From the sequence record PZ445534.1: DNA of 64,000 bases; one strand, 5' to 3'. Within the stretch, counting starts at the first letter, position 1, and each line of letters starts with the position of its first letter. Shown here piece by piece: positions 3,847 to 50,004 of the stretch. The notes below the pieces were generated by a model, which was not told the DNA's origin, did no database searches, and saw only the letters and a list, made by a program, of their open reading frames with translations. The translations under genes were made by a program, and so were the position numbers. The DNA comes from a phage.

Positions 3847-4176
3847 TTAATCTGCCAGCCTTAAATTAAAATTAACACCAAATTTTTCGCATACTTCCAA
3901 CATATACTCAAGCGAGACATTACCAGTGAGGTGGACTATGTTGGATACACGAGCTTGAGAGATACCACAAATTTTAGCAACTTGCTCTTGAGAAAGACCT
4001 CTGGATTTAATCTCTCTCTTAAAACGATGTGCAACGAAATCTCTCATTTCGTCTACATCCATTGGACAAATATAACTCTCCATTTCAGCCTCTCTGTCAG
4101 CCTCCCAATCATCTTGTGGAGCATAAGGGTCAAAAACCTCATTCATCTTTCTTCTTCCGTTTGCGTGAAGTGTCAA
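3847..4176 (-). CDS. helix-turn-helix DNA-binding protein (XRE-like)
   Basis: C-terminal segment LSQEQVAKICGISQARVSNIV resembles XRE-family HTH. Confidence 0.5.
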   Translation of the reverse strand: MTLHANGRRKMNEVFDPYAPQDDWEADREAEMESYICPMDVDEMRDFVAHRFKREIKSRGLSQEQVAKICGISQARVSNIVHLTGNVSLEYMLEVCEKFGVNFNLRLAD

Positions 4177-20374: not shown

Positions 20375-20398
20375 GGAGCCTCTTCGGAGGCTCTTTTC
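20375..20398 (+). terminator. rho-independent terminator
   Basis: GGAGCCTC-TTCG-GAGGCTC stem-loop plus TTTT. Confidence 0.65.
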
Positions 20399-20415
20399 AT
20401 CTGTAGGATTCAAAA

Positions 20416-22650
20416 ATGATTAAGACAATTAAAAAATCAAACGGTACAGTAGTAAGCTTTGACCCAGAAAGACTGAATAAGTGGGCATCATGGGCAGATA
20501 AACGTGGGATTATCTGGTCAGAAGTCACTATGGAAGCCATGAAACGTGTCTATGAGGGTTGCACTACAAAAGAGATGCACCAAGCCATGATTGATGTTTG
20601 TGTTGATAAACAAACTCAAGAGTACTCAGATATGGCTGGACGACTGCTTTTGGGTATTATCTACAAAGAAGCCTTTGGAGGCTTTACTAAGGTTCCTACG
20701 CTGGTTACCTTCGTTAAAAATATGGAGAGAGCAGGACTTTGGGAGAAGATGGACTATTCACAGGAAGAGCTTGAATATCTGCAAGGTTACATCGTACACT
20801 CAAAAGATATCTCTTACGGCTATGCAGTCTTGAAACAGTTCAGAGACAAGTATGGTATCCGTGATATTAAAACTGGAAGACTTTTTGAGTCACCACAATT
20901 TATGTTTATGGGTATGGCTATGAAAGCCTTTGAGAAGCAACCAAAGCACCGTAGACTGCAAGATGTTATCAAGCTGTACACTTACCTATCCGACCTGAAG
21001 ATTAACGCTCCTACGCCTTATTTAAATGGTTTAAGAGCAACTAAATCAGGTTATGCGTCATGCTGTTTGATTAAGGCAAATGATACTGCTGAGTCTCTCG
21101 GTATTGCTGCAAAGGTTGCTTATGATATGACCACAAAGCAAGCTGGTATTGGTATGCTGATGGAGACACGTACTATTGGTGATGGTATCCGTCAAAACAC
21201 TATTGAGCACATGGGTAAACTACCTTATTACAAGCTTGTACGTTCATCTGTAGAGGCAAACAAACAGAAGAGCCGTGGTGGTTCAGCTAATAACTTCTAC
21301 ACCGCTCTAGACCCGCAGATTGAAGACTTACTGCGTTTGAAGCACCCTACAACGGTTCCTTCTAAACGTATTAATGAGATGGACTACTCATTCGGCACAA
21401 ACGATTATTTCTGGCAGTGTGTTCAGTATGATACAGATTGGTTGCTATTCTCGTACAAAGATGCACCAAAACTCTATGACATGTTCTACACAGCATCTGC
21501 TGATGAGTTTGCTATGGCAGTTGGTCACGCAGTACACTCAGGAGTTAAGCACAGACGAGTTAAGGCTCGTGAAATTGCTAAGCTGTTTATTCAACAGCGT
21601 TATGCTACAGGACGTGTGTATCCATTCTTCACTAACAATGCAAACACACATACACCATTTAAAGAGCCTTTGAAGATGTCAAATCTTTGTATGGAAATTG
21701 TGTTGCCAGTGTATGGTTTTGAGAAAGAGACAGACCTTTACAGAGACGATGCTGTGAAAGAGGATGGTGAGGTGGCTCTTTGCTTCCTAGCTAGTTTGGT
21801 TGCAGGGAGAATTTCAGAAGATGAATACGCTGACGTTGCTTATTATGCTCTTGCAATGGTTGACTCCGTTATTGACCTTATGGATTATCCGTATCCGTCG
21901 ATGCGTAACCATGTTCAGAAGCGTCGTTCTGTTGGGATTGGCCTTACAAATGTGGCTCATTACCTTGCGAAGAACTACGTGAACTACTCTTCACGAGCAG
22001 GTAAAACGAAACTTCATGAACTTGCAGAGATGCACTCTTACTATCTGCATGAAGCTTCTCTGAGACTTGCTAAAGAGCGTGGTGTTCCAGAGTACATGAA
22101 GTTCACTAAGTATCCTGAAGGCTGGGTTCCTCCAAAGACAGCTAACAAGAAGATTGATGAAAAGCATGATGCAAAACTACGATATGATTGGGATGACTTA
22201 GCACAACGTATCAAAGAAAATGGTGGAATCCGAAACTCTGTATTAGAAGCTTACATGCCTAATGAGAGTTCTTCACTAGCAACTAATACGACAAACGGCT
22301 TGTACCCAATTCGTGACTTTATTTTAACTAAAAAGTCTGCAACTGGTAACGTACTGTTTATTGTTCCAGATTATGAAGAGTTGAAGTATGTCTATGAAAT
22401 TGCTTGGAATATTGACACCTTTGATATGATTGATTGTTATGCAATTGTTCAAAAGTTCACTGGTCAAGCTATCTCTTCAGACTTCTATGTTGACTATGCA
22501 AAGTCTAAGAAGGTATCATTGGCTCAAGCTCTGAAGTACATGATTTATGCCAACTCGGTAGGTATGAAAACAATGTACTACCTTAACAGTCGCATTGGTG
22601 TAGGTAAATCTGCACTGCAAGATGCTTATTGCGAGGGTTGTGGTGTTTAG
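20416..22650 (+). CDS. nrdA: ribonucleoside-diphosphate reductase class Ia large subunit
   Basis: N-terminal ATP-cone-like segment, 744 aa, C-terminal CEGCGV cysteine pair. Confidence 0.85.
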   Translation: MIKTIKKSNGTVVSFDPERLNKWASWADKRGIIWSEVTMEAMKRVYEGCTTKEMHQAMIDVCVDKQTQEYSDMAGRLLLGIIYKEAFGGFTKVPTLVTFVKNMERAGLWEKMDYSQEELEYLQGYIVHSKDISYGYAVLKQFRDKYGIRDIKTGRLFESPQFMFMGMAMKAFEKQPKHRRLQDVIKLYTYLSDLKINAPTPYLNGLRATKSGYASCCLIKANDTAESLGIAAKVAYDMTTKQAGIGMLMETRTIGDGIRQNTIEHMGKLPYYKLVRSSVEANKQKSRGGSANNFYTALDPQIEDLLRLKHPTTVPSKRINEMDYSFGTNDYFWQCVQYDTDWLLFSYKDAPKLYDMFYTASADEFAMAVGHAVHSGVKHRRVKAREIAKLFIQQRYATGRVYPFFTNNANTHTPFKEPLKMSNLCMEIVLPVYGFEKETDLYRDDAVKEDGEVALCFLASLVAGRISEDEYADVAYYALAMVDSVIDLMDYPYPSMRNHVQKRRSVGIGLTNVAHYLAKNYVNYSSRAGKTKLHELAEMHSYYLHEASLRLAKERGVPEYMKFTKYPEGWVPPKTANKKIDEKHDAKLRYDWDDLAQRIKENGGIRNSVLEAYMPNESSSLATNTTNGLYPIRDFILTKKSATGNVLFIVPDYEELKYVYEIAWNIDTFDMIDCYAIVQKFTGQAISSDFYVDYAKSKKVSLAQALKYMIYANSVGMKTMYYLNSRIGVGKSALQDAYCEGCGV

Positions 22651-37054: not shown

Positions 37055-37071
37055 TAAGTAATTTCTTAAAA

Positions 37072-37093
37072 GGCTGCTTCGGCGGCCTTTTTT
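37072..37093 (+). terminator. rho-independent terminator
   Basis: GGCTGC-TTCG-GCGGCC plus TTTTTT. Confidence 0.65.
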
Positions 37094-37154
37094 ATTTGTA
37101 TTTTGTGCAGAGTGCTGTATAATTGTTGTCACGATAAACTAAACAGGAGAACCA

Positions 37155-38862: not shown

Positions 38863-38885
38863 AGGCTCCTTCGGGAGCCTTTTTC
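38863..38885 (+). terminator. rho-independent terminator
   Basis: GGCTCC-TTC-GGGAGCC plus TTTTT. Confidence 0.65.
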
Positions 38886-40404: not shown

Positions 40405-41190
40405 ATGGGTATTGTAAAAATCATCAATGGCGATATCTTTGCCGCATTTGATAAAGGTAAGTTTGACATTATTGGTCACGGTTGCAACTGTATGAATTTA
40501 ATGGGTGCAGGTATCGCTGACAAGATTTCTAAACTTTACCCAAAAGCATATGAGACAGATACAGAAGTCTATCTATATGCAGGTGGCATAGGTCACAAAC
40601 CCTGTGAAAATTTACTGGGTAATTTCTCTGTAGCACGTTTAAAACAAGGTCGTATAGCTAACCTTTACACTCAGCTTAAGACTGGTAAAGATGCCCGATA
40701 CAGTGCTTTAGAGTCATCTTTGAAGCAACTTAACAGATACTGTGAAGTTAATCAGTTGAAGAAAGTTGGTTTACCTATGATTGGTGCAGGTATCGGTGGA
40801 CTTGACCCTCAAGCCGTCACAGTTATCATCAATCAGGTGATGAAGAGCGTAGATGTTTATCTATATGTCTATGAAGGAGAGATGTACCATAAGTTACTCT
40901 CAGGTTGGAAGAACTACTGTGAACCAGAATACTTTGCAGGTGTAGCAGTGTTCACAGATAACGCAGTTACCCTCTTCAGACGAAGAAAAGGTAAGATACA
41001 TCAAAGTAACCCTCCGGTTGAAAAGATGTCTCTAAGTAACGCTCTAGTTACCCACCTGTCAAAGAGCAATCACAGAATTGCTGTAACATTTGGTAGTGAT
41101 GCAGAAGCTTATATCTATGCAAGAACTGATGAGGATATTGAGGCAATCTTCTCTTCACCAGAAGTTACCTTCTTAGACGCAAAGAACTAA
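40405..41190 (+). CDS. macrodomain protein (TARG1/OARD1-like ADP-ribose hydrolase fold) with C-terminal extension
   Basis: INGDIFAA...IIGHGCNCMNLMGAGIA and GLPMIGAGIGGLD match TARG1 motifs as recalled (GDLFAC...HCISEDCRMGAGIA and MPRIGCGLDRL). Confidence 0.6.
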   Translation: MGIVKIINGDIFAAFDKGKFDIIGHGCNCMNLMGAGIADKISKLYPKAYETDTEVYLYAGGIGHKPCENLLGNFSVARLKQGRIANLYTQLKTGKDARYSALESSLKQLNRYCEVNQLKKVGLPMIGAGIGGLDPQAVTVIINQVMKSVDVYLYVYEGEMYHKLLSGWKNYCEPEYFAGVAVFTDNAVTLFRRRKGKIHQSNPPVEKMSLSNALVTHLSKSNHRIAVTFGSDAEAYIYARTDEDIEAIFSSPEVTFLDAKN

Positions 41191-41254
41191 GAAACTCTGT
41201 AGGATATTCACAATAGACTAAGCCTTTCTTATCTGGTAAATTTTTCAGGTAAGG

Positions 41255-41500
41255 AGGGCTTTTTCATTTCAGATTTGTGCAGGTAGAGTTCTGTAGAGAA
41301 ATCTATAGAGAAAATTTTGAACTCCAAAGAGAAAATTCATTCTCAAACTGTGCAGGTAATCTCCAAAGAGCTTTTTCATTTTCAAAACGTGCAGACCCCG
41401 CTCAGGTCGGGCAAGAAAAATCATTTTAGAATTGTGCAGGTAGGTTTTTATAGACAGCCAGCCCAACCCCTCTCCCCCTCTTACTCCCCCTCTCCCCAAA
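41255..41500. repeat. four tandem imperfect direct repeats (TTCATTTTCA-N4-6-GTGCAGGTA core) followed by a C-rich tract
   Basis: Repeat copies near 41257, 41330, 41368, 41413; C-rich run CCCAACCCCTCTCCCCCTCTTACTCCCCCTCTCCCC at 41461-41497. Confidence 0.6.
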
Positions 41501-41618
41501 AGTCAAGAGAAAAATTTGTAGCGGATTGAAAAATAATTCTTGATTTGCGTTCTGTTTTGTGGTAGTCGTGCGCACCCGTTTCATTACAGTTTTGCCAAAA
41601 ATATTTTTAAAATTTTTA

Positions 41619-41647
41619 TTGACTCTTTGAACGTGGTTATCTAATAT
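41619..41647 (+). promoter_or_regulatory. sigma70-like promoter, type B cassette (TTGACT-17-TAATAT) followed by 5' leader hairpin
   Basis: -35 41619-41624, -10 41642-41647; hairpin GGAGAGGGAATAACCTTCCCC just downstream. Confidence 0.55.
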
Positions 41648-41713
41648 TTGCATCAACGGAGAGGGAATAACCTTCCCCACTAAATAACTAACCTTAAACT
41701 AGGAGACTCTAAA

Positions 41714-42094
41714 ATGGCATATCGTGCACCTAAATTCATCAATAAAGACAACTTTCGCAACGCACTGGAGAAGGCACTTGATGAGAATTTCAAAGGTAAC
41801 GTTATCGTTGTTCACTCGTTCAATTTCAAGTATGATATCAACGGGAACAAAATCAACCACTACACTGCAACCATGCTAGATGGTACACTATCAAGTGAAA
41901 AAGCCGTACTGAATGCACTAGCAGGACGCGGAAAAGTATTAGTAAGATGTGATAAGAGACGTTATCAAGGCGGCGCATATGGTTACGACGATGCTATTTA
42001 TCATCTTGAAAATATGGGCTATCAAGTAGAAAAAGCTGGGGTATCACAAATCATCGGTAGTGATGGCTACGTGACAATCTTCAAAATTAAATAA
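41714..42094 (+). CDS. early-array small protein 1, hypothetical
   Basis: 126-aa ORF with strong SD (AACTAGGAGACTCTAAAATG). Confidence 0.5.
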   Translation: MAYRAPKFINKDNFRNALEKALDENFKGNVIVVHSFNFKYDINGNKINHYTATMLDGTLSSEKAVLNALAGRGKVLVRCDKRRYQGGAYGYDDAIYHLENMGYQVEKAGVSQIIGSDGYVTIFKIK

Positions 42095-42101
42095 AAAGTA
42101 C

Positions 42102-47770: not shown

Positions 47771-49360
47771 ACGTCTATCCAATCCTCATACAACCCCTTT
47801 CCCTTTCCTTTCCAGAATCTTATCAGACCTTAAAAAGCAATAACTTTACAGCCTTTTACTAAGTCAATTAATTGGCCTTATTAATAAGCCCTTAAACATA
47901 AGCCAATAACCCCAGAAAGGGGGCAACCCATTTAAACGCCATATAAAGCCCTATAACGGCCTTTTTAACCTAACTTAAGGGATTGCATTACCTCACCCTT
48001 AAAAGCCCTTTATAAAGCTTCACAGAGCCTTAAAAGAATCTTATAAGGGTGTAAGCTTTATTATCTCGTTAGCTATCTTGTGAACTACTAAACAACCCCC
48101 TTGATAGTAACTGAAAAGTATGTTATAGGGGCTTTAAAGTTACTTTGAAGTAGCTTAAAAGTTACGTAAATGCTAGCCCCCTTAACATTTTCTTAACAAT
48201 TTCTTAACAATCCCTACATAGTTATGCTTTTAAGGCACTTGTTAGCAACTTGTTAGCCCCTTGTTAAATCTCTGTTAAGACCACGTAAAAGCCTTGTAAG
48301 AGTCTTTGACATAGCCTTAAAAGCTCCTGTAAAGCCCTATAAAGAGCTTTCTGTATAGTTGGGGTGTAACTACTAGGAAGAGACTTAAAAGAGCTTACAA
48401 GGAGCTATAGAGAGCTTTTAAGAGGTATGTTTAAAGAATCACTAGGGATTGGTAACAATACCAATTAAGAAGTAAAGGGAACGATAAGAAAAGAGTAGTG
48501 ACCATGTTAATAGCTTGTTAAAAAGATTAAACACTTGTTAGGAACTTGTTAATTATCTTAACAAAATAACTCTTTAAAATTAACTTCTTAGCTCTTGTTA
48601 GTCATCTGTTAAGATTCTGTAAAGCCTATTCAGCACTTGTTAATTGGTATTGTTACCAATCCCTAGAAAACTGTTAAGCCCTTGTTAGTTCTGTTAAGAA
48701 ACTGTTAAGACTTTTGAAGATTTGTTAAGAGCTTGAGAGAGTTGTTAAGAAATTGTTAAGGATATTTTAAAATTTTGCAAAGTACTTGTAAGGGAGCTGT
48801 TAAGGGCTACCAAGCAGATATACATCTTCTACAGATATTTTTCAGTTCCTTCAAAGACCCTAAAAAATGACTTGATAGTCCTATTTTATAAAAATTTTAA
48901 GATTCTGAATAATTACCTAGACAGTCTTTTAAAAATACAGGTAATAACAGGCTTATAAGATACCTTGTTAGTACCGTGTTAGACCTTGTGAGATAAGGTC
49001 TGTAAAGATATTCCTGTTAAGTTTGTTAAAACAGTCTATATAGAGGCTTAGTAATACCTAGTGAACACCTATAGAGGGTATCATAGCTAACCTAGAGATT
49101 AAGAGGTGTATAGGAGCTTCTAAGAGGGTATAGAGAGATGGTTAAGGTGATTGTATAGGTTGTTAAGAAGGCTTGTTAGAGGGCTTGTTAGAAGGGTTAT
49201 ACAGAGGGCTATTAAGACCACTAGATAGTTACTAAGATACTATATAGTACTATATAACTATATAGAGAGTAAGATTAAGAGGGTTGTTAAGAAGGATAGA
49301 TATTTTGTTCACATATGCTGGTGACCCAGAGGTTGGGACAACCGATGGAATTTTATAAAA
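47771..49360. repeat. 1.6 kb non-coding region dense in short (C/T)TGTTA(A/G)(G/C) repeats with a 24-bp perfect inverted repeat pair
   Basis: No ORF over 60 aa; more than 30 TTGTTAAG/CTGTTAAG/TTGTTAGC copies; GGGATTGGTAACAATACCAATTAA at 48445-48468 and its reverse complement at 48640-48663. Confidence 0.7.
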
Positions 49361-49398
49361 ATTAAAAAGCCCCCAATTAAGGAGGCTCTTAAGATATT

Positions 49399-50004
49399 TT
49401 AAATCAGACTTTCTAAAACTGTTTTTAGTGATGACTTGGTTGTCTGATAAAAATGAGTGAATCCGTTGTTGTTATCGAATATCTGCATCATAACAGCATC
49501 TCCCTTGATTGGGTACACTCGGATATCATAGTGAAACCCATTAAAGACAGCAGAACCATTACAGAATACACTAAAATCACTTGCTGAGATATACTCTTCA
49601 TGACCTGTGATTTTTATACAGACACCTTTACTCGGTCTCTTAGGGTTGATATCTTCCATAATAGACATACTCTGTCCACCAAGAGATACCATAGTGACCA
49701 CTTTACGGTTCTTCTGTCTGAAGTACATTTTAACCTTCTGCAAGGTGTCTTCATAGAACGGATAAGACTTCTCTACAAAGATTCCTTCAAGTGGCTCTTT
49801 ACCGTTTACAATACCTCTGGTATGGCGTACTGAGAAGATAAGTTGCTCTAGCAGGTCAAGGCTTTCTTCGGATAGTGCTTCCCGAATATCGCTCCAGTCA
49901 AGTACTAGGTAGTTACCTTCAACTTCTTTTAAGTTATCTTTTTCCATAGCTATCACACCATTATCGTAAAACTTGGTAGGCTGGTACTGCAAACTTGTTG
50001 CCAT
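49399..50004 (-). CDS. hypothetical protein
   Basis: 201-aa ORF. Confidence 0.4.
   Translation of the reverse strand: MATSLQYQPTKFYDNGVIAMEKDNLKEVEGNYLVLDWSDIREALSEESLDLLEQLIFSVRHTRGIVNGKEPLEGIFVEKSYPFYEDTLQKVKMYFRQKNRKVVTMVSLGGQSMSIMEDINPKRPSKGVCIKITGHEEYISASDFSVFCNGSAVFNGFHYDIRVYPIKGDAVMMQIFDNNNGFTHFYQTTKSSLKTVLESLI

What the first reader, a model, noticed from the sequence alone, without database searches (positions are those of the whole stretch)
41255..41500. Tandem direct repeats and a C-rich tract immediately upstream of the early-gene array
Four imperfect direct repeats with core TTCATTTTCA-N4-6-GTGCAGGTA (about 41257, 41330, 41368, 41413) are followed by CCCAACCCCTCTCCCCCTCTTACTCCCCCTCTCCCC. 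The region lies between the end of the replication/metabolism block and the first early promoter. It could be an iteron-type origin, a binding array for a regulator, or sequence near a physical genome terminus. ORFs predicted here are likely spurious.
Basis: seen in the sequence. Interest (0 to 1): 0.55.

Follow-up and report, generated by a model that had tools for sequence, protein, structure and literature searches.

The report
Conserved non-coding repeat array in Felix O1-like phages
Between a terminator and the first early promoter of a Felix O1-type phage lie four conserved copies of a two-part DNA motif and a unique C-rich tract; they look like binding sites for an unidentified factor, are not a genome end or a gene, and can be disrupted without harming lab growth.

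Summary
Four same-strand copies of TCATTT-N7-GTGCAG (cores at 41264, 41337, 41376, 41421) are followed by a C-rich tract (41462-41497). The window is a Felixounavirus genome.

The motif occurs nowhere else in the 64 kb, or in the whole Felix O1 genome. The one exception is a single copy at 37092, just after the rIIB terminator and overlapping a promoter. Copy number and spacing (73-77/39-41/45 bp) are the same in Felixouna-, Susp- and Mooglevirus. Erwinia Kolesnikvirus has four copies at 37/37/39 bp. The cores are kept while the linkers diverge.

R1 overlaps the U-tract of a strong intrinsic terminator. The C tract is the genome's only canonical G-quadruplex motif and a near-perfect mirror repeat, but many Felixounaviruses carry an unrelated sequence in its place.

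I found no coding signal, no RNA covariation, no Rfam match, no DnaA boxes and no bacterial or plasmid counterpart. The physical ends lie 7 kb downstream at about 48.2-48.8 kb. Published barcode insertions inside the array of phage Bas63 are neutral.

Best reading (confidence about 0.35): a non-essential binding-site array for an unidentified factor that marks a transcription boundary. A dispensable origin is the main rival. I found no description of it in the literature I searched.

The parts
41220..41271 (+). Intrinsic terminator of the upstream gene block: a 17-bp-stem hairpin (41220-41261) plus the U-tract TTTTTCATTT. The U-tract forms the left half of repeat R1.
   Evidence: The scan finds it. 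RNA fold gives -25.8 kcal/mol, z = -6.9, with 0 of 200 shuffles as stable. A hairpin followed by a T-run stands at this position in all eight genomes aligned, with different stem sequences in the different genera.
41264..41282 (+). Repeat R1 core, TCATTTCAGATTTGTGCAG (extended site 41258-41287).
   Evidence: Matrix score 41.8 bits.
41337..41355 (+). Repeat R2 core, TCATTCTCAAACTGTGCAG, preceded by CTCCAAAGAGAAAAT.
   Evidence: Matrix score 32.9 bits.
41376..41394 (+). Repeat R3 core, TCATTTTCAAAACGTGCAG, preceded by CTCCAAAGAGCTTTT.
   Evidence: Matrix score 34.0 bits.
41421..41439 (+). Repeat R4 core, TCATTTTAGAATTGTGCAG.
   Evidence: Matrix score 37.7 bits.
41462..41497 (+). C-rich polypyrimidine tract ('allele A'). 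It reads as a G-quadruplex motif on the minus strand and an i-motif pattern on the plus strand. It is also a mirror repeat, CCCCTCTCCCCCTC-TTA-CTCCCCCTCTCCCC.
   Evidence: It is the only canonical G4 motif in the window and in Felix O1, with the highest C density. Mirror symmetry is 29 of 31 positions, and about 0.05 G4 motifs are expected by chance. Many Felixounaviruses have an unrelated 'allele B' here. Several assemblies break at this tract.
41497..41545 (+). Most conserved non-coding block, CAAAAGTCAAGAGAAAAATTTGTAGCGGATTGAAAAATAATTCTTGA. It includes a degenerate fifth left half-site, GAAAAATAATTCTTGATTTG.
   Evidence: The 41491-41540 bin is 86-90% identical to Susp-/Mooglevirus and phiWec174, against 54-70% for the neighbouring phosphatase gene. 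See also the alignment and repeat family D2.
41591..41618 (+). Conserved A+T-rich tract directly upstream of the first early promoter. It could be an UP element or a DNA-unwinding element.
   Evidence: The 40-nt windows here reach 85% A+T, which is in the top 0.075% of the window. The other early promoters lack such a tract. Several columns are invariant in the alignment.
41619..41647 (+). First early promoter, TTGACT-17-TAATAT, driving the 126-aa gene at 41714-42094.
37092..37123 (+). Solitary fifth site, TTATTT-N7-GTGCAG, immediately after the rIIB terminator (37068-37091). A consensus -10 (TATAAT, 37118-37123) follows 7 nt later, so the site covers about -38 to -20 of the promoter of the SLT-like/PNK/spanin/phosphatase gene block.
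   Evidence: In Mooglevirus Sf17 the two half-sites and TATAAT are kept while the N7 differs.

Best explanation
The four repeats are recognition sites for one sequence-specific factor, most likely a phage-encoded DNA-binding protein that I could not identify. Each site has two invariant 6-bp half-sites 13 bp apart centre to centre, all in the same orientation.

The sites would assemble a fixed-geometry complex immediately downstream of the intrinsic terminator that closes the rIIB-proximal gene block, and upstream of the early-gene cluster. In this reading the complex acts as a modulatory transcription boundary or regulatory region. It could reinforce or gate termination and read-through into the early genes. 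It would also share its factor with the promoter at 37118, where a fifth site overlaps the -35/spacer region.

The C-rich tract is a lineage-variable, structure-prone spacer rather than an indispensable part.

What is shown: the sites, their uniqueness in the genome, their conservation, their position relative to the terminators, the absence of coding and of RNA structure signals, and dispensability in Bas63. What is inferred: that a protein binds, which protein it is, and that the effect is on transcription.
For: The motif is bipartite. TCATTT and GTGCAG are near-invariant across 63 distinct instances, while the 7-nt middle and the linkers vary.

Copy number is four in four genera. Spacing is 73-77/39-41/45 bp in three of them and 37/37/39 bp in phiEa21-4.

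The intergenic DNA is about as conserved as the adjacent gene, with identity peaks on the repeats.

The motif is confined to this locus in the whole Felix O1 genome, apart from one solitary site. That site overlaps a promoter with a consensus -10 and a poor -35, and it is conserved in Mooglevirus with a diverged N7.

R1 and the solitary site both start inside the U-tract of a strong terminator.

The region does not look coding: substitutions are spread evenly over codon positions and indels are not multiples of three. There is no covariation on either strand and no Rfam family.

Barcode insertions in bas63_0096, a spurious ORF spanning R1 to R4, have fitness of +0.24 to +0.98 in four hosts. 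DNA polymerase scores about -2.5 on MG1655. This fits a modulatory element rather than an essential one.
Against: No binding protein was identified. Pfam and PHROGs scans of 20 flanking proteins found no DNA-binding domain. The only recognisable regulator is an XRE-type helix-turn-helix protein at 3847-4176, and proteins of that type usually bind palindromes.

The array is 180-350 bp from the nearest promoter, and the other early promoters carry no sites.

The overlap between R1 and a terminator U-tract is not kept in phiEa21-4. The tail CTTTTTCATTTCAG also follows a terminator that has no GTGCAG, so the left half-site may partly reflect descent from terminator tails.

Neutral insertions are also what a functionless relic would show.
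Confidence: 0.35

Rival explanations
1. Iteron-type, or transcription-activated, origin of replication. In this model four iterons bind an initiator, the structure-prone tract and the A+T-rich segment melt, and the strong outward promoter activates the origin.
For: There are four same-orientation sites of about 19 bp with fixed spacing. One of the most A+T-rich 40-mers of the window (top 0.075%) lies 150 bp away, is conserved and is specific to this promoter. The locus is unique in the genome. After the terminal-repeat region, this is the largest conserved non-coding stretch found.
Against: No initiator was recognised in the Felix O1 annotation or among the 20 flanking proteins scanned. The replication genes are T7-like (gp4-type primase/helicase, Pol A, gp6-type exonuclease) and lie more than 20 kb away.

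There are no DnaA boxes. GC skew shows no inflection at 41 kb, whereas the cumulative skew turns at about 10-12 kb and about 48-50 kb.

The 37-45 bp period is about twice that of typical iterons. This comparison rests on my own knowledge of lambda, P1 and F.

Insertions between R1 and R4 are neutral in Bas63. An origin here would therefore have to be dispensable or tolerant of insertions, as I recall is the case for the T7 primary origin.
Confidence: 0.2
2. RNA-level element. Read-through or locally started transcripts would carry tandem units of about 37-45 nt that serve as a processed or decoy RNA. One example is a mimic of a type III antitoxin array, as with pseudo-ToxI of phage PhiTE. Another is a set of binding or cleavage sites for an RNA-binding protein.
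For: The units repeat in tandem at 37/37/39 nt in the Erwinia phages. All five sites lie on the transcribed strand. An RT-PCR amplicon for 'ORF14', which lies in this region, peaks at 25 min after infection (PMC3185647). Being dispensable in lab strains yet conserved is typical of conditionally needed counter-defence functions. There is a precedent: PhiTE expands pseudo-ToxI repeats to escape ToxIN (PMC3475682).
Against: No promoter is evident upstream, and a strong terminator precedes the array. There is no covariation and no Rfam hit.

No similar array turned up in 185,579 representative bacterial genomes: none of the 28 pattern hits was in an Enterobacterales genome, and I did not inspect them further. 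Nothing comparable turned up in 72,556 plasmids (two weak short hits only) or 5,426 E. coli genomes.

The units are heterogeneous, with T-run and A-run flanks alternating. Copy number and uneven spacing are fixed across genera, unlike arrays that expand by slippage. The RT-PCR was not strand-specific, which is my inference from the methods.
Confidence: 0.08
3. DNA-entry checkpoint like the T5 injection stop signal. The array would mark the inner edge of the first-entering genome segment, which would hold only early host-takeover genes.
For: The array lies about 7.3 kb from the right physical end, roughly 8-9% of an ~87-kb genome (my arithmetic). The T5 first-step-transfer segment is 7.9% of its genome. 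Everything between the array and that end is small early genes of unknown function, most preceded by their own promoter-like site. As in T5, the untranslated repeats are about as conserved as the neighbouring ORFs, or more so.
Against: The defining T5 features are absent: there are no paired DnaA boxes and no large inverted repeats. Two-step entry has never been reported for Felix O1-type phages in what I searched. Which end enters first is unknown. Insertions in the array are neutral.
Confidence: 0.05
4. Functionless relic. The repeats would be tandemly duplicated terminator tails that persist without any role.
For: The left half-site with its T-run matches the generic terminator tail CTTTTTCATTTCAG of this phage. 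Insertions are neutral.
Against: The cores are kept while linkers and N7 diverge across four genera, whose flanking gene is only 47-70% identical at the DNA level. The number and spacing of copies are fixed. GTGCAG is also kept at the solitary site in another genus.
Confidence: 0.07
5. Physical genome terminus or packaging recognition site.
For: Contigs and records of several relatives end at or next to the C tract.
Against: Those ends carry Illumina/Nextera adapter, a fold-back or a chimeric junction. The terminal repeat annotated for Pr103Blw, and the restriction and Bal31 data for UAB_Phi87, place the ends at window 48.2-48.8 kb.
Confidence: 0.02

Closest known systems
Iteron arrays of lambdoid-phage and plasmid origins (lambda ori, P1 oriR, F ori2)
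   Same: Several asymmetric direct repeats of about 19 bp in one orientation, an A+T-rich segment nearby, a single locus per genome, and cores more conserved than spacers.
   Different: The period here is 37-77 bp rather than about 21-24 bp. No Rep or O-type initiator was found and the replisome is T7-like. There are no DnaA boxes. The array is not inside or beside a replication gene. Insertions are tolerated. The iteron dimensions are from my own knowledge.
T5 injection stop signal region (Repeat Region 3 of the left terminal repeat; Davison, bioRxiv 10.1101/866236)
   Same: A conserved untranslated repeat region at the inner border of a terminal block of early genes covering about 8% of the genome, and as conserved as the surrounding ORFs or more so.
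   Different: The T5 region is 1.2 kb with nested palindromes, a 131-bp inverted repeat and eight paired DnaA boxes. Here there are four simple direct repeats, no DnaA boxes and no evidence of two-step entry.
ToxI antitoxin RNA arrays and the phage PhiTE pseudo-ToxI locus (PMC3475682)
   Same: Non-coding tandem direct repeats of about 36-45 nt in a lytic phage of Enterobacterales, and dispensable unless a defence system is present.
   Different: No cognate host array was found and no promoter precedes the repeats. Copy number and uneven spacing are fixed. The units are heterogeneous. There is no Rfam match.
Factor-dependent polar terminators with a T-rich release element followed by a bound protein site, such as the Sal-box/TTF-I arrays downstream of rRNA genes (from my own knowledge)
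   Same: A T-rich tract immediately followed by an oriented protein-binding site, repeated in tandem at the end of a transcription unit.
   Different: That is a eukaryotic Pol I system. Nothing here shows that a roadblock protein exists or that termination depends on it.
Tandem 43-bp sopC centromere repeats of plasmid F (from my own knowledge)
   Same: A period of about 40 bp, with a short conserved core inside each unit.
   Different: The sopC cores are inverted repeats bound by a ParB-type protein. This lytic phage has no recognised partition genes.

Membership tests
Iteron-type replication origin | Three or more direct repeats of about 17-22 bp in one orientation | tested here: met
   Four 19-bp cores, all on the plus strand.
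Iteron-type replication origin | Adjacent A+T-rich DNA-unwinding element | tested here: inconclusive
   An 85% A+T tract at 41591-41630 is in the top 0.075% of the window and is conserved. It abuts the -35 of a promoter, so it could equally be an UP element.
Iteron-type replication origin | A cognate initiator protein encoded by the element | tested here: not met
   No Rep, O or DnaA-like protein appears in the Felix O1 annotation or among 20 flanking proteins. Many ORFs remain unknown, so absence is not proven.
Iteron-type replication origin | Host DnaA boxes | tested here: not met
   TTWTNCACA gives no hit in 41191-41713, and only 4 hits in 64 kb against 11 expected.
Iteron-type replication origin | Required in cis for replication, or a copy-number peak early in infection | tested here: inconclusive
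   Insertions inside the array of Bas63 are neutral. That speaks against an essential origin but not against a redundant one. Marker-frequency data are not available.
T5-type injection stop signal | Position at the inner edge of the first-entering ~8% of the genome | tested here: inconclusive
   About 7.3 kb from the right physical end, roughly 8-9% of the genome (my arithmetic). Which end enters first is unknown.
T5-type injection stop signal | Paired DnaA boxes inside large inverted repeats | tested here: not met
   There are no DnaA boxes. The longest local inverted repeats are 10-20 nt chance-like pairs.
T5-type injection stop signal | Two-step DNA transfer that depends on pre-early proteins | not testable with these tools
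   This needs shear or entry experiments.
Type III antitoxin RNA / phage pseudo-antitoxin array | Tandem direct repeats of about 34-45 nt | tested here: met
   Periods of 37/37/39 in phiEa21-4 and 39/45 (plus one gap of 73) in the window.
Type III antitoxin RNA / phage pseudo-antitoxin array | Sequence resemblance to an antitoxin array of the host or its plasmids | tested here: not met
   None of the 28 pattern hits in representative bacterial genomes was in an Enterobacterales genome. The plasmid search gave only two weak short hits and complete E. coli genomes gave none. There is no Rfam hit.
Type III antitoxin RNA / phage pseudo-antitoxin array | Transcribed and processed into unit-length RNAs | tested here: inconclusive
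   An RT-PCR signal for 'ORF14' peaks at 25 min. Neither the strand nor any processing is known.
Direct terminal repeat / physical terminus / pac site | Coincides with the mapped genome ends | tested here: not met
   The ends map to window 48.2-48.8 kb.
Intrinsic (Rho-independent) terminator (41220-41271 only) | A G+C-rich hairpin followed by a U-tract at the end of a gene | tested here: met
   (-25.8 kcal/mol, z = -6.9), 30 nt after the phosphatase stop codon.
G-quadruplex / i-motif / H-DNA forming sequence (41462-41497) | Four or more runs of at least 3 G (or C) with loops of 1-7 nt; a homopyrimidine mirror repeat | tested here: met
   Whether the structure actually forms cannot be tested here.
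Protein-coding gene (annotated as ORF14, bas63_0096/0097, Phi87_49/50) | Conserved reading frame with excess third-position substitutions | tested here: not met
   Differences at codon positions 1/2/3 against SUSP1 are 16/16/10. Gaps are not multiples of three, and the longest stop-free stretch falls in a different place, or is missing, from genome to genome.
Structured non-coding RNA | Conserved secondary structure with compensatory changes | tested here: not met
   The covariation term is 0 to +0.45 kcal/mol on the two strands. The R3-R4 hairpin is not conserved and is no more stable than shuffles.

The most novel reading that the evidence does not exclude
The array is transcribed by read-through and works as RNA. 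Four tandem units would act as a decoy or antitoxin mimic against an RNA-targeting host defence whose cognate array is not in the collections searched. That would explain why the array is conserved across a whole phage subfamily yet freely disruptable in laboratory E. coli.
Probability: 0.07. Interest if true: 0.8.

Novelty: new member of a known kind. Interest (0 to 1): 0.42.

Why it matters
Felix O1-type phages are widely used for Salmonella and E. coli typing, biocontrol and therapy. Even so, their origin of replication, their temporal control of transcription and their cis-acting DNA signals are unknown. The 2010 genome paper says explicitly that read-through of the many terminators and temporal regulation are not understood.

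This array is a clearly delimited non-coding element that is as conserved as its neighbouring gene. It stands next to a terminator, and a matching single site overlaps a promoter, so it offers a concrete handle for finding the missing regulator or initiator.

There are practical consequences too. Several GenBank records annotate spurious ORFs on the array. The C tract is also a recurrent break point in assemblies, so it can be mistaken for a genome end.

Tried and rejected
- **Rfam:** a scan at E-value up to 10 gave only chance hits of 17 bits or less.
- **RNA structure:** RNAalifold on nine diverse sequences, both strands, showed no covariation.
- **Promoter class:** I tested whether GTGCAG-N6-10-TAnAnN occurs upstream of genes generally. 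It occurs only at the array and the solitary site, so it is not a general middle or late promoter motif.
- **DnaA boxes:** none. By eye I also compared the motif with IHF, marbox, OmpR, Fur, CRP, LexA, NtrC and sigma-54 consensus sequences and with the F iteron. None fitted beyond partial chance matches. This was from memory, not a tool test.
- **Duplicated terminal repeat:** the extra ~480 bp in ekra and KhF3 is an inserted early-gene cassette after 41719, not a duplication.
- **Distant relatives:** two metagenomic contigs with a 41%-identical macro-domain gene carry no array.
- **Host mimicry:** searches of genomes, plasmids and E. coli were negative.
- **Candidate binding proteins:** Pfam and PHROGs scans of 20 neighbouring proteins found only a macro domain, a weak SLT match and a sub-threshold BRCT match.
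- **Ends at the array in UAB_Phi87:** 11583 + 2819 lands at the phosphatase stop codon by coincidence. I rejected this because no second SpeI site exists within 8.6 kb.
- **Bas63 intergenic fitness data:** these are not in the supplement; intergenic rows exist only for T7. The gene-level rows for the spurious ORF served instead.
- **Literature:** searches found no description of this array.

Full report
**Identity and context.** The window is part of a Felixounavirus (subfamily Ounavirinae) genome. The stretch 40900-42100 is 93-95% identical to phages ekra, UAB_Phi87, VpaE1 and many others. The finding lies in a 523-bp gap (41191-41713). Upstream is a macro-domain 'phosphatase' gene at 40405-41190 (PHROG 335, Pfam Macro). 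Downstream is the first of a series of small plus-strand genes of unknown function. An equivalent gap of 460-520 bp follows the same gene in Felix O1, Suspvirus, Mooglevirus and the Erwinia Kolesnikvirus phiEa21-4.

**The observation.** The real unit is bipartite: TCATTT, seven variable A/T-rich bases, then GTGCAG, usually followed by GT and preceded six bases upstream by G. The cores start at 41264, 41337, 41376 and 41421. The pattern is far beyond chance, with 0 of 100 shuffles reaching the observed count. A weight matrix scores the four sites at 33-42 bits, and nothing else in the window exceeds 17 bits. In the complete Felix O1 genome the motif occurs only in this array, apart from one solitary site. 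A 39-nt consensus finds full-length matches only in Felix O1-type (Ounavirinae) records, at 1-4 places per record; other phages give only short chance-level hits.

**Conservation.** Across 25 distinct sequences from GenBank and IMG/VR the four cores are kept. Their start-to-start spacing is 73-77, 39-41 and 45 bp in Felixouna-, Susp- and Mooglevirus. phiEa21-4 has four copies at 37, 37 and 39 bp, with GTGCAT in place of GTGCAG. The N7 and the linkers diverge. The gap as a whole is as conserved as the adjacent coding sequence: 66-69% against 67-70% for Susp- and Mooglevirus. Identity peaks at 86% over R1 and at 88-90% over 41491-41540.

**Not coding, and no sign of structured RNA.** Some records annotate ORFs here: Felix O1 'ORF14', Phi87_49/50 and bas63_0096/0097. 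Three things argue against them. The longest stop-free stretch falls in a different place, or is missing, from genome to genome. Indels are not multiples of three. Substitutions against eight relatives are spread evenly over codon positions, with the third position if anything the least variable. RNAalifold finds no covariation on either strand. The hairpin between R3 and R4 is neither conserved nor more stable than shuffled sequence. Rfam gives nothing.

**Terminators.** A strong intrinsic terminator at 41220-41261 (-25.8 kcal/mol, z = -6.9) closes the upstream block. Its U-tract, TTTTTCATTT, is the left half of R1. The one other motif copy in the genome, at 37092, has the same arrangement. 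It begins in the U-tract of the rIIB terminator and reads TTATTT-N7-GTGCAG, followed after 7 nt by a consensus TATAAT. It therefore covers about -38 to -20 of the promoter for the SLT-like/PNK/spanin/phosphatase block, a promoter with a good -10 and a poor -35. In Mooglevirus Sf17 both half-sites and the TATAAT are retained while the N7 differs. This promoter-overlapping site is the main reason I favour a transcription factor. There are two cautions. The tail CTTTTTCATTTCAG also follows the terminator at 38863 with no GTGCAG after it. In phiEa21-4, R1 does not overlap a terminator U-tract.

**The C tract.** The stretch 41462-41497 is the only canonical G-quadruplex motif in the window and in Felix O1, and it has the highest C density. 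About 0.05 such motifs are expected by chance. It is also a homopyrimidine mirror repeat with 14-nt arms, the kind of sequence that can form H-DNA. It is present in part of Felixounavirus and in Susp- and Mooglevirus, and in shorter form in phiEa21-4. Many Felixounaviruses, including VpaE1, EC6 and Bas63, instead carry an unrelated 'allele B' that starts with extra GTGCAGGT-like half-sites. So the tract is not indispensable to whatever the array does.

The tract does explain a practical oddity. IMG/VR contigs of about 89 kb stop and start inside it with Illumina/Nextera adapter directly abutting. Another contig turns chimeric just before it, and the GenBank record of phage Andreotti ends in a fold-back right before it. 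These are artefacts of a coverage trough, not physical ends.

**Physical ends.** The record of Felixounavirus Pr103Blw annotates identical 581-bp terminal repeats at both ends, and its paper reports two 581-bp terminal repeats from PhageTerm. This repeat maps to window 48176-~48760, inside a 1.6-kb non-coding region packed with CTTGTTA-type repeats. For UAB_Phi87 the ends were mapped experimentally with Bal31 and run-off sequencing. The two Bal31-sensitive SpeI fragments, 2819 and 4322 bp, fit the 6568-bp SpeI interval around the equivalent region plus one repeat of about 570-610 bp. Ends at the array are impossible, because no SpeI site lies within 8.6 kb beyond it. The array is therefore about 7.3 kb from the right end.

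**Downstream architecture.** After the C tract comes the most conserved block, 41497-41545. Then comes an 85% A+T tract that ranks in the top 0.075% of the window and is not found at the other early promoters. Then comes TTGACT-17-TAATAT at 41619. This layout resembles an origin: iterons, an easily melted segment and an activating promoter.

The evidence against an origin is as follows. No initiator is recognisable. The replisome genes are T7-like and distant. There are no DnaA boxes. GC skew does not turn here.

**Published experiments.** Two sets of published data bear on function.
- *Transcription.* In Felix O1, RT-PCR for 'ORF14', which lies in this gap, peaked at 25 min after infection, the same class as ORFs 3, 4, 6 and 10. 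ORFs 13, 16 and 20-22 peaked at 5 min. So the region is transcribed, although the strand is unknown.
- *Insertions.* In Bas63 (JohannRWettstein) the spurious ORF bas63_0096 spans from inside R1 to the start of R4. The PhageMaP study targeted each gene with 2-4 guides and inserted barcodes. 'Gene 96' scores +0.65 to +0.93 on MG1655, +0.24 to +0.65 on S17, +0.57 to +0.77 on TerY-P and +0.70 to +0.98 on AVAST type 4 hosts. That is like the non-essential phosphatase. On MG1655, DNA polymerase scores about -2.5 and the capsid protein -3.6 to -4.5. Gene 97, which covers R4, allele B and the conserved block, is missing from the tables I read.

Disrupting the array's spacing therefore does not reduce lytic growth in the laboratory. 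That argues against an essential origin, entry signal or packaging signal. It fits a modulatory or conditionally needed element.

**Other ideas tested.** The tandem period of about 37-45 nt suggested a type III antitoxin mimic like pseudo-ToxI of PhiTE. I found no related array in representative bacterial genomes, where none of the 28 pattern hits was in an Enterobacterales genome. The plasmid search gave only two weak short hits, and complete E. coli genomes gave none. A terminator rather than a promoter precedes the array, and the fixed number and uneven spacing are unlike arrays that grow by slippage. A T5-like injection stop signal fits the position, but its defining DnaA-box pairs and large inverted repeats are absent.

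**Verdict.** The feature is real, conserved, non-coding and specific to Ounavirinae. Most likely it is an array of binding sites for one unidentified sequence-specific factor. It sits at the boundary between a terminator-closed gene block and the early cluster, and it shares its factor with one promoter 4 kb upstream.

I put about 0.35 on a transcription-boundary or regulatory role, 0.2 on a dispensable origin, and less than 0.1 each on an RNA decoy, an entry checkpoint or a relic. I put about 0.02 on a terminus.

It belongs to a familiar kind, a phage cis-acting repeat array. I found no description of it in the literature I searched.

Noticed in passing
window 47800-49400 (terminal-repeat equivalent about 48176-48760): A 1.6-kb non-coding region lies between the convergent early and minus-strand gene blocks. 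It contains the direct terminal repeat mapped in relatives and is densely packed with short CTTGTTA(A/G)/CTGTTAAGA repeats, often 11 bp apart. It is a likely terminase recognition or concatemer-junction region.
   Followed up: partly
window 41462-41497; loci L013, L014, L017, L035, L045, L047, L004: Independent assemblies of related phages break at or next to the C-rich tract. Two IMG/VR contigs end at ...CTCTTACTCC, one of them running straight into Nextera adapter. Two contigs start with adapter followed by CCCCAAAAG... or CTCTTACTCC.... One turns chimeric with unrelated GC-rich sequence after the R3-R4 hairpin. The GenBank record MN850610 (Andreotti) ends in a fold-back annotated as a repeat_region. 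The tract seems to be a coverage trough and a tagmentation hot spot that can pass for a genome end.
   Followed up: partly
window 37068-37123: A solitary copy of the array motif (TTATTT-N7-GTGCAG) sits in the U-tract of the rIIB terminator and overlaps a promoter with a consensus TATAAT. It is conserved in Mooglevirus Sf17.
   Followed up: yes
window 42102, 42482, 43084, 44158, 44954, 45287 (and 43786, 44653): The early promoters fall into two repeated cassettes. One has TTTACA followed by an inverted repeat (GGGGCTTA...TAAGCCCC) spanning the spacer and the -10. This resembles the promoter-stem-loop cassettes described in T4-type phages (from my own knowledge) and matches the 57-bp repeats noted in the Felix O1 paper. 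The other cassette is TTGACACTGGTTTTTAGATAGATTAAATT.
   Followed up: no
just after window 41719; L001 2319-2775, L002: Phages ekra, KhF3 and others carry an extra cassette of about 480 bp here, with a small early gene (62 aa in ekra) annotated inside it and the sequence just upstream of the next gene's start duplicated at its far end. The site directly downstream of the first early promoter is a hot spot for gene gain.
   Followed up: partly
whole window: Consensus DnaA boxes (TTWTNCACA) are under-represented: 4 observed against 11.1 +/- 3.1 expected, and all 100 shuffles had at least 4.
   Followed up: no
window 20396-20425 (minus strand): A weak motif-like hit (11.9 bits; 6.2 bits in Felix O1) lies in the short gap before nrdA, right after terminator t111 and in the opposite orientation. 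It is probably chance.
   Followed up: no
GenBank GU169904 (Staphylococcus phage SA1), MG065664 (Campylobacter phage A132): Records labelled as Staphylococcus or Campylobacter phages contain 97%-identical Felix O1-type sequence. This suggests chimeric or contaminated records.
   Followed up: no
window 3847-4176 (minus strand): This is the only recognisable DNA-binding regulator, a 109-aa XRE-type helix-turn-helix protein. Its Bas63 counterpart by product name ('putative transcriptional regulator', gene 35) scores about -1.3 to -1.5 in PhageMaP, so it matters for growth. It is a candidate to test on the array.
   Followed up: partly
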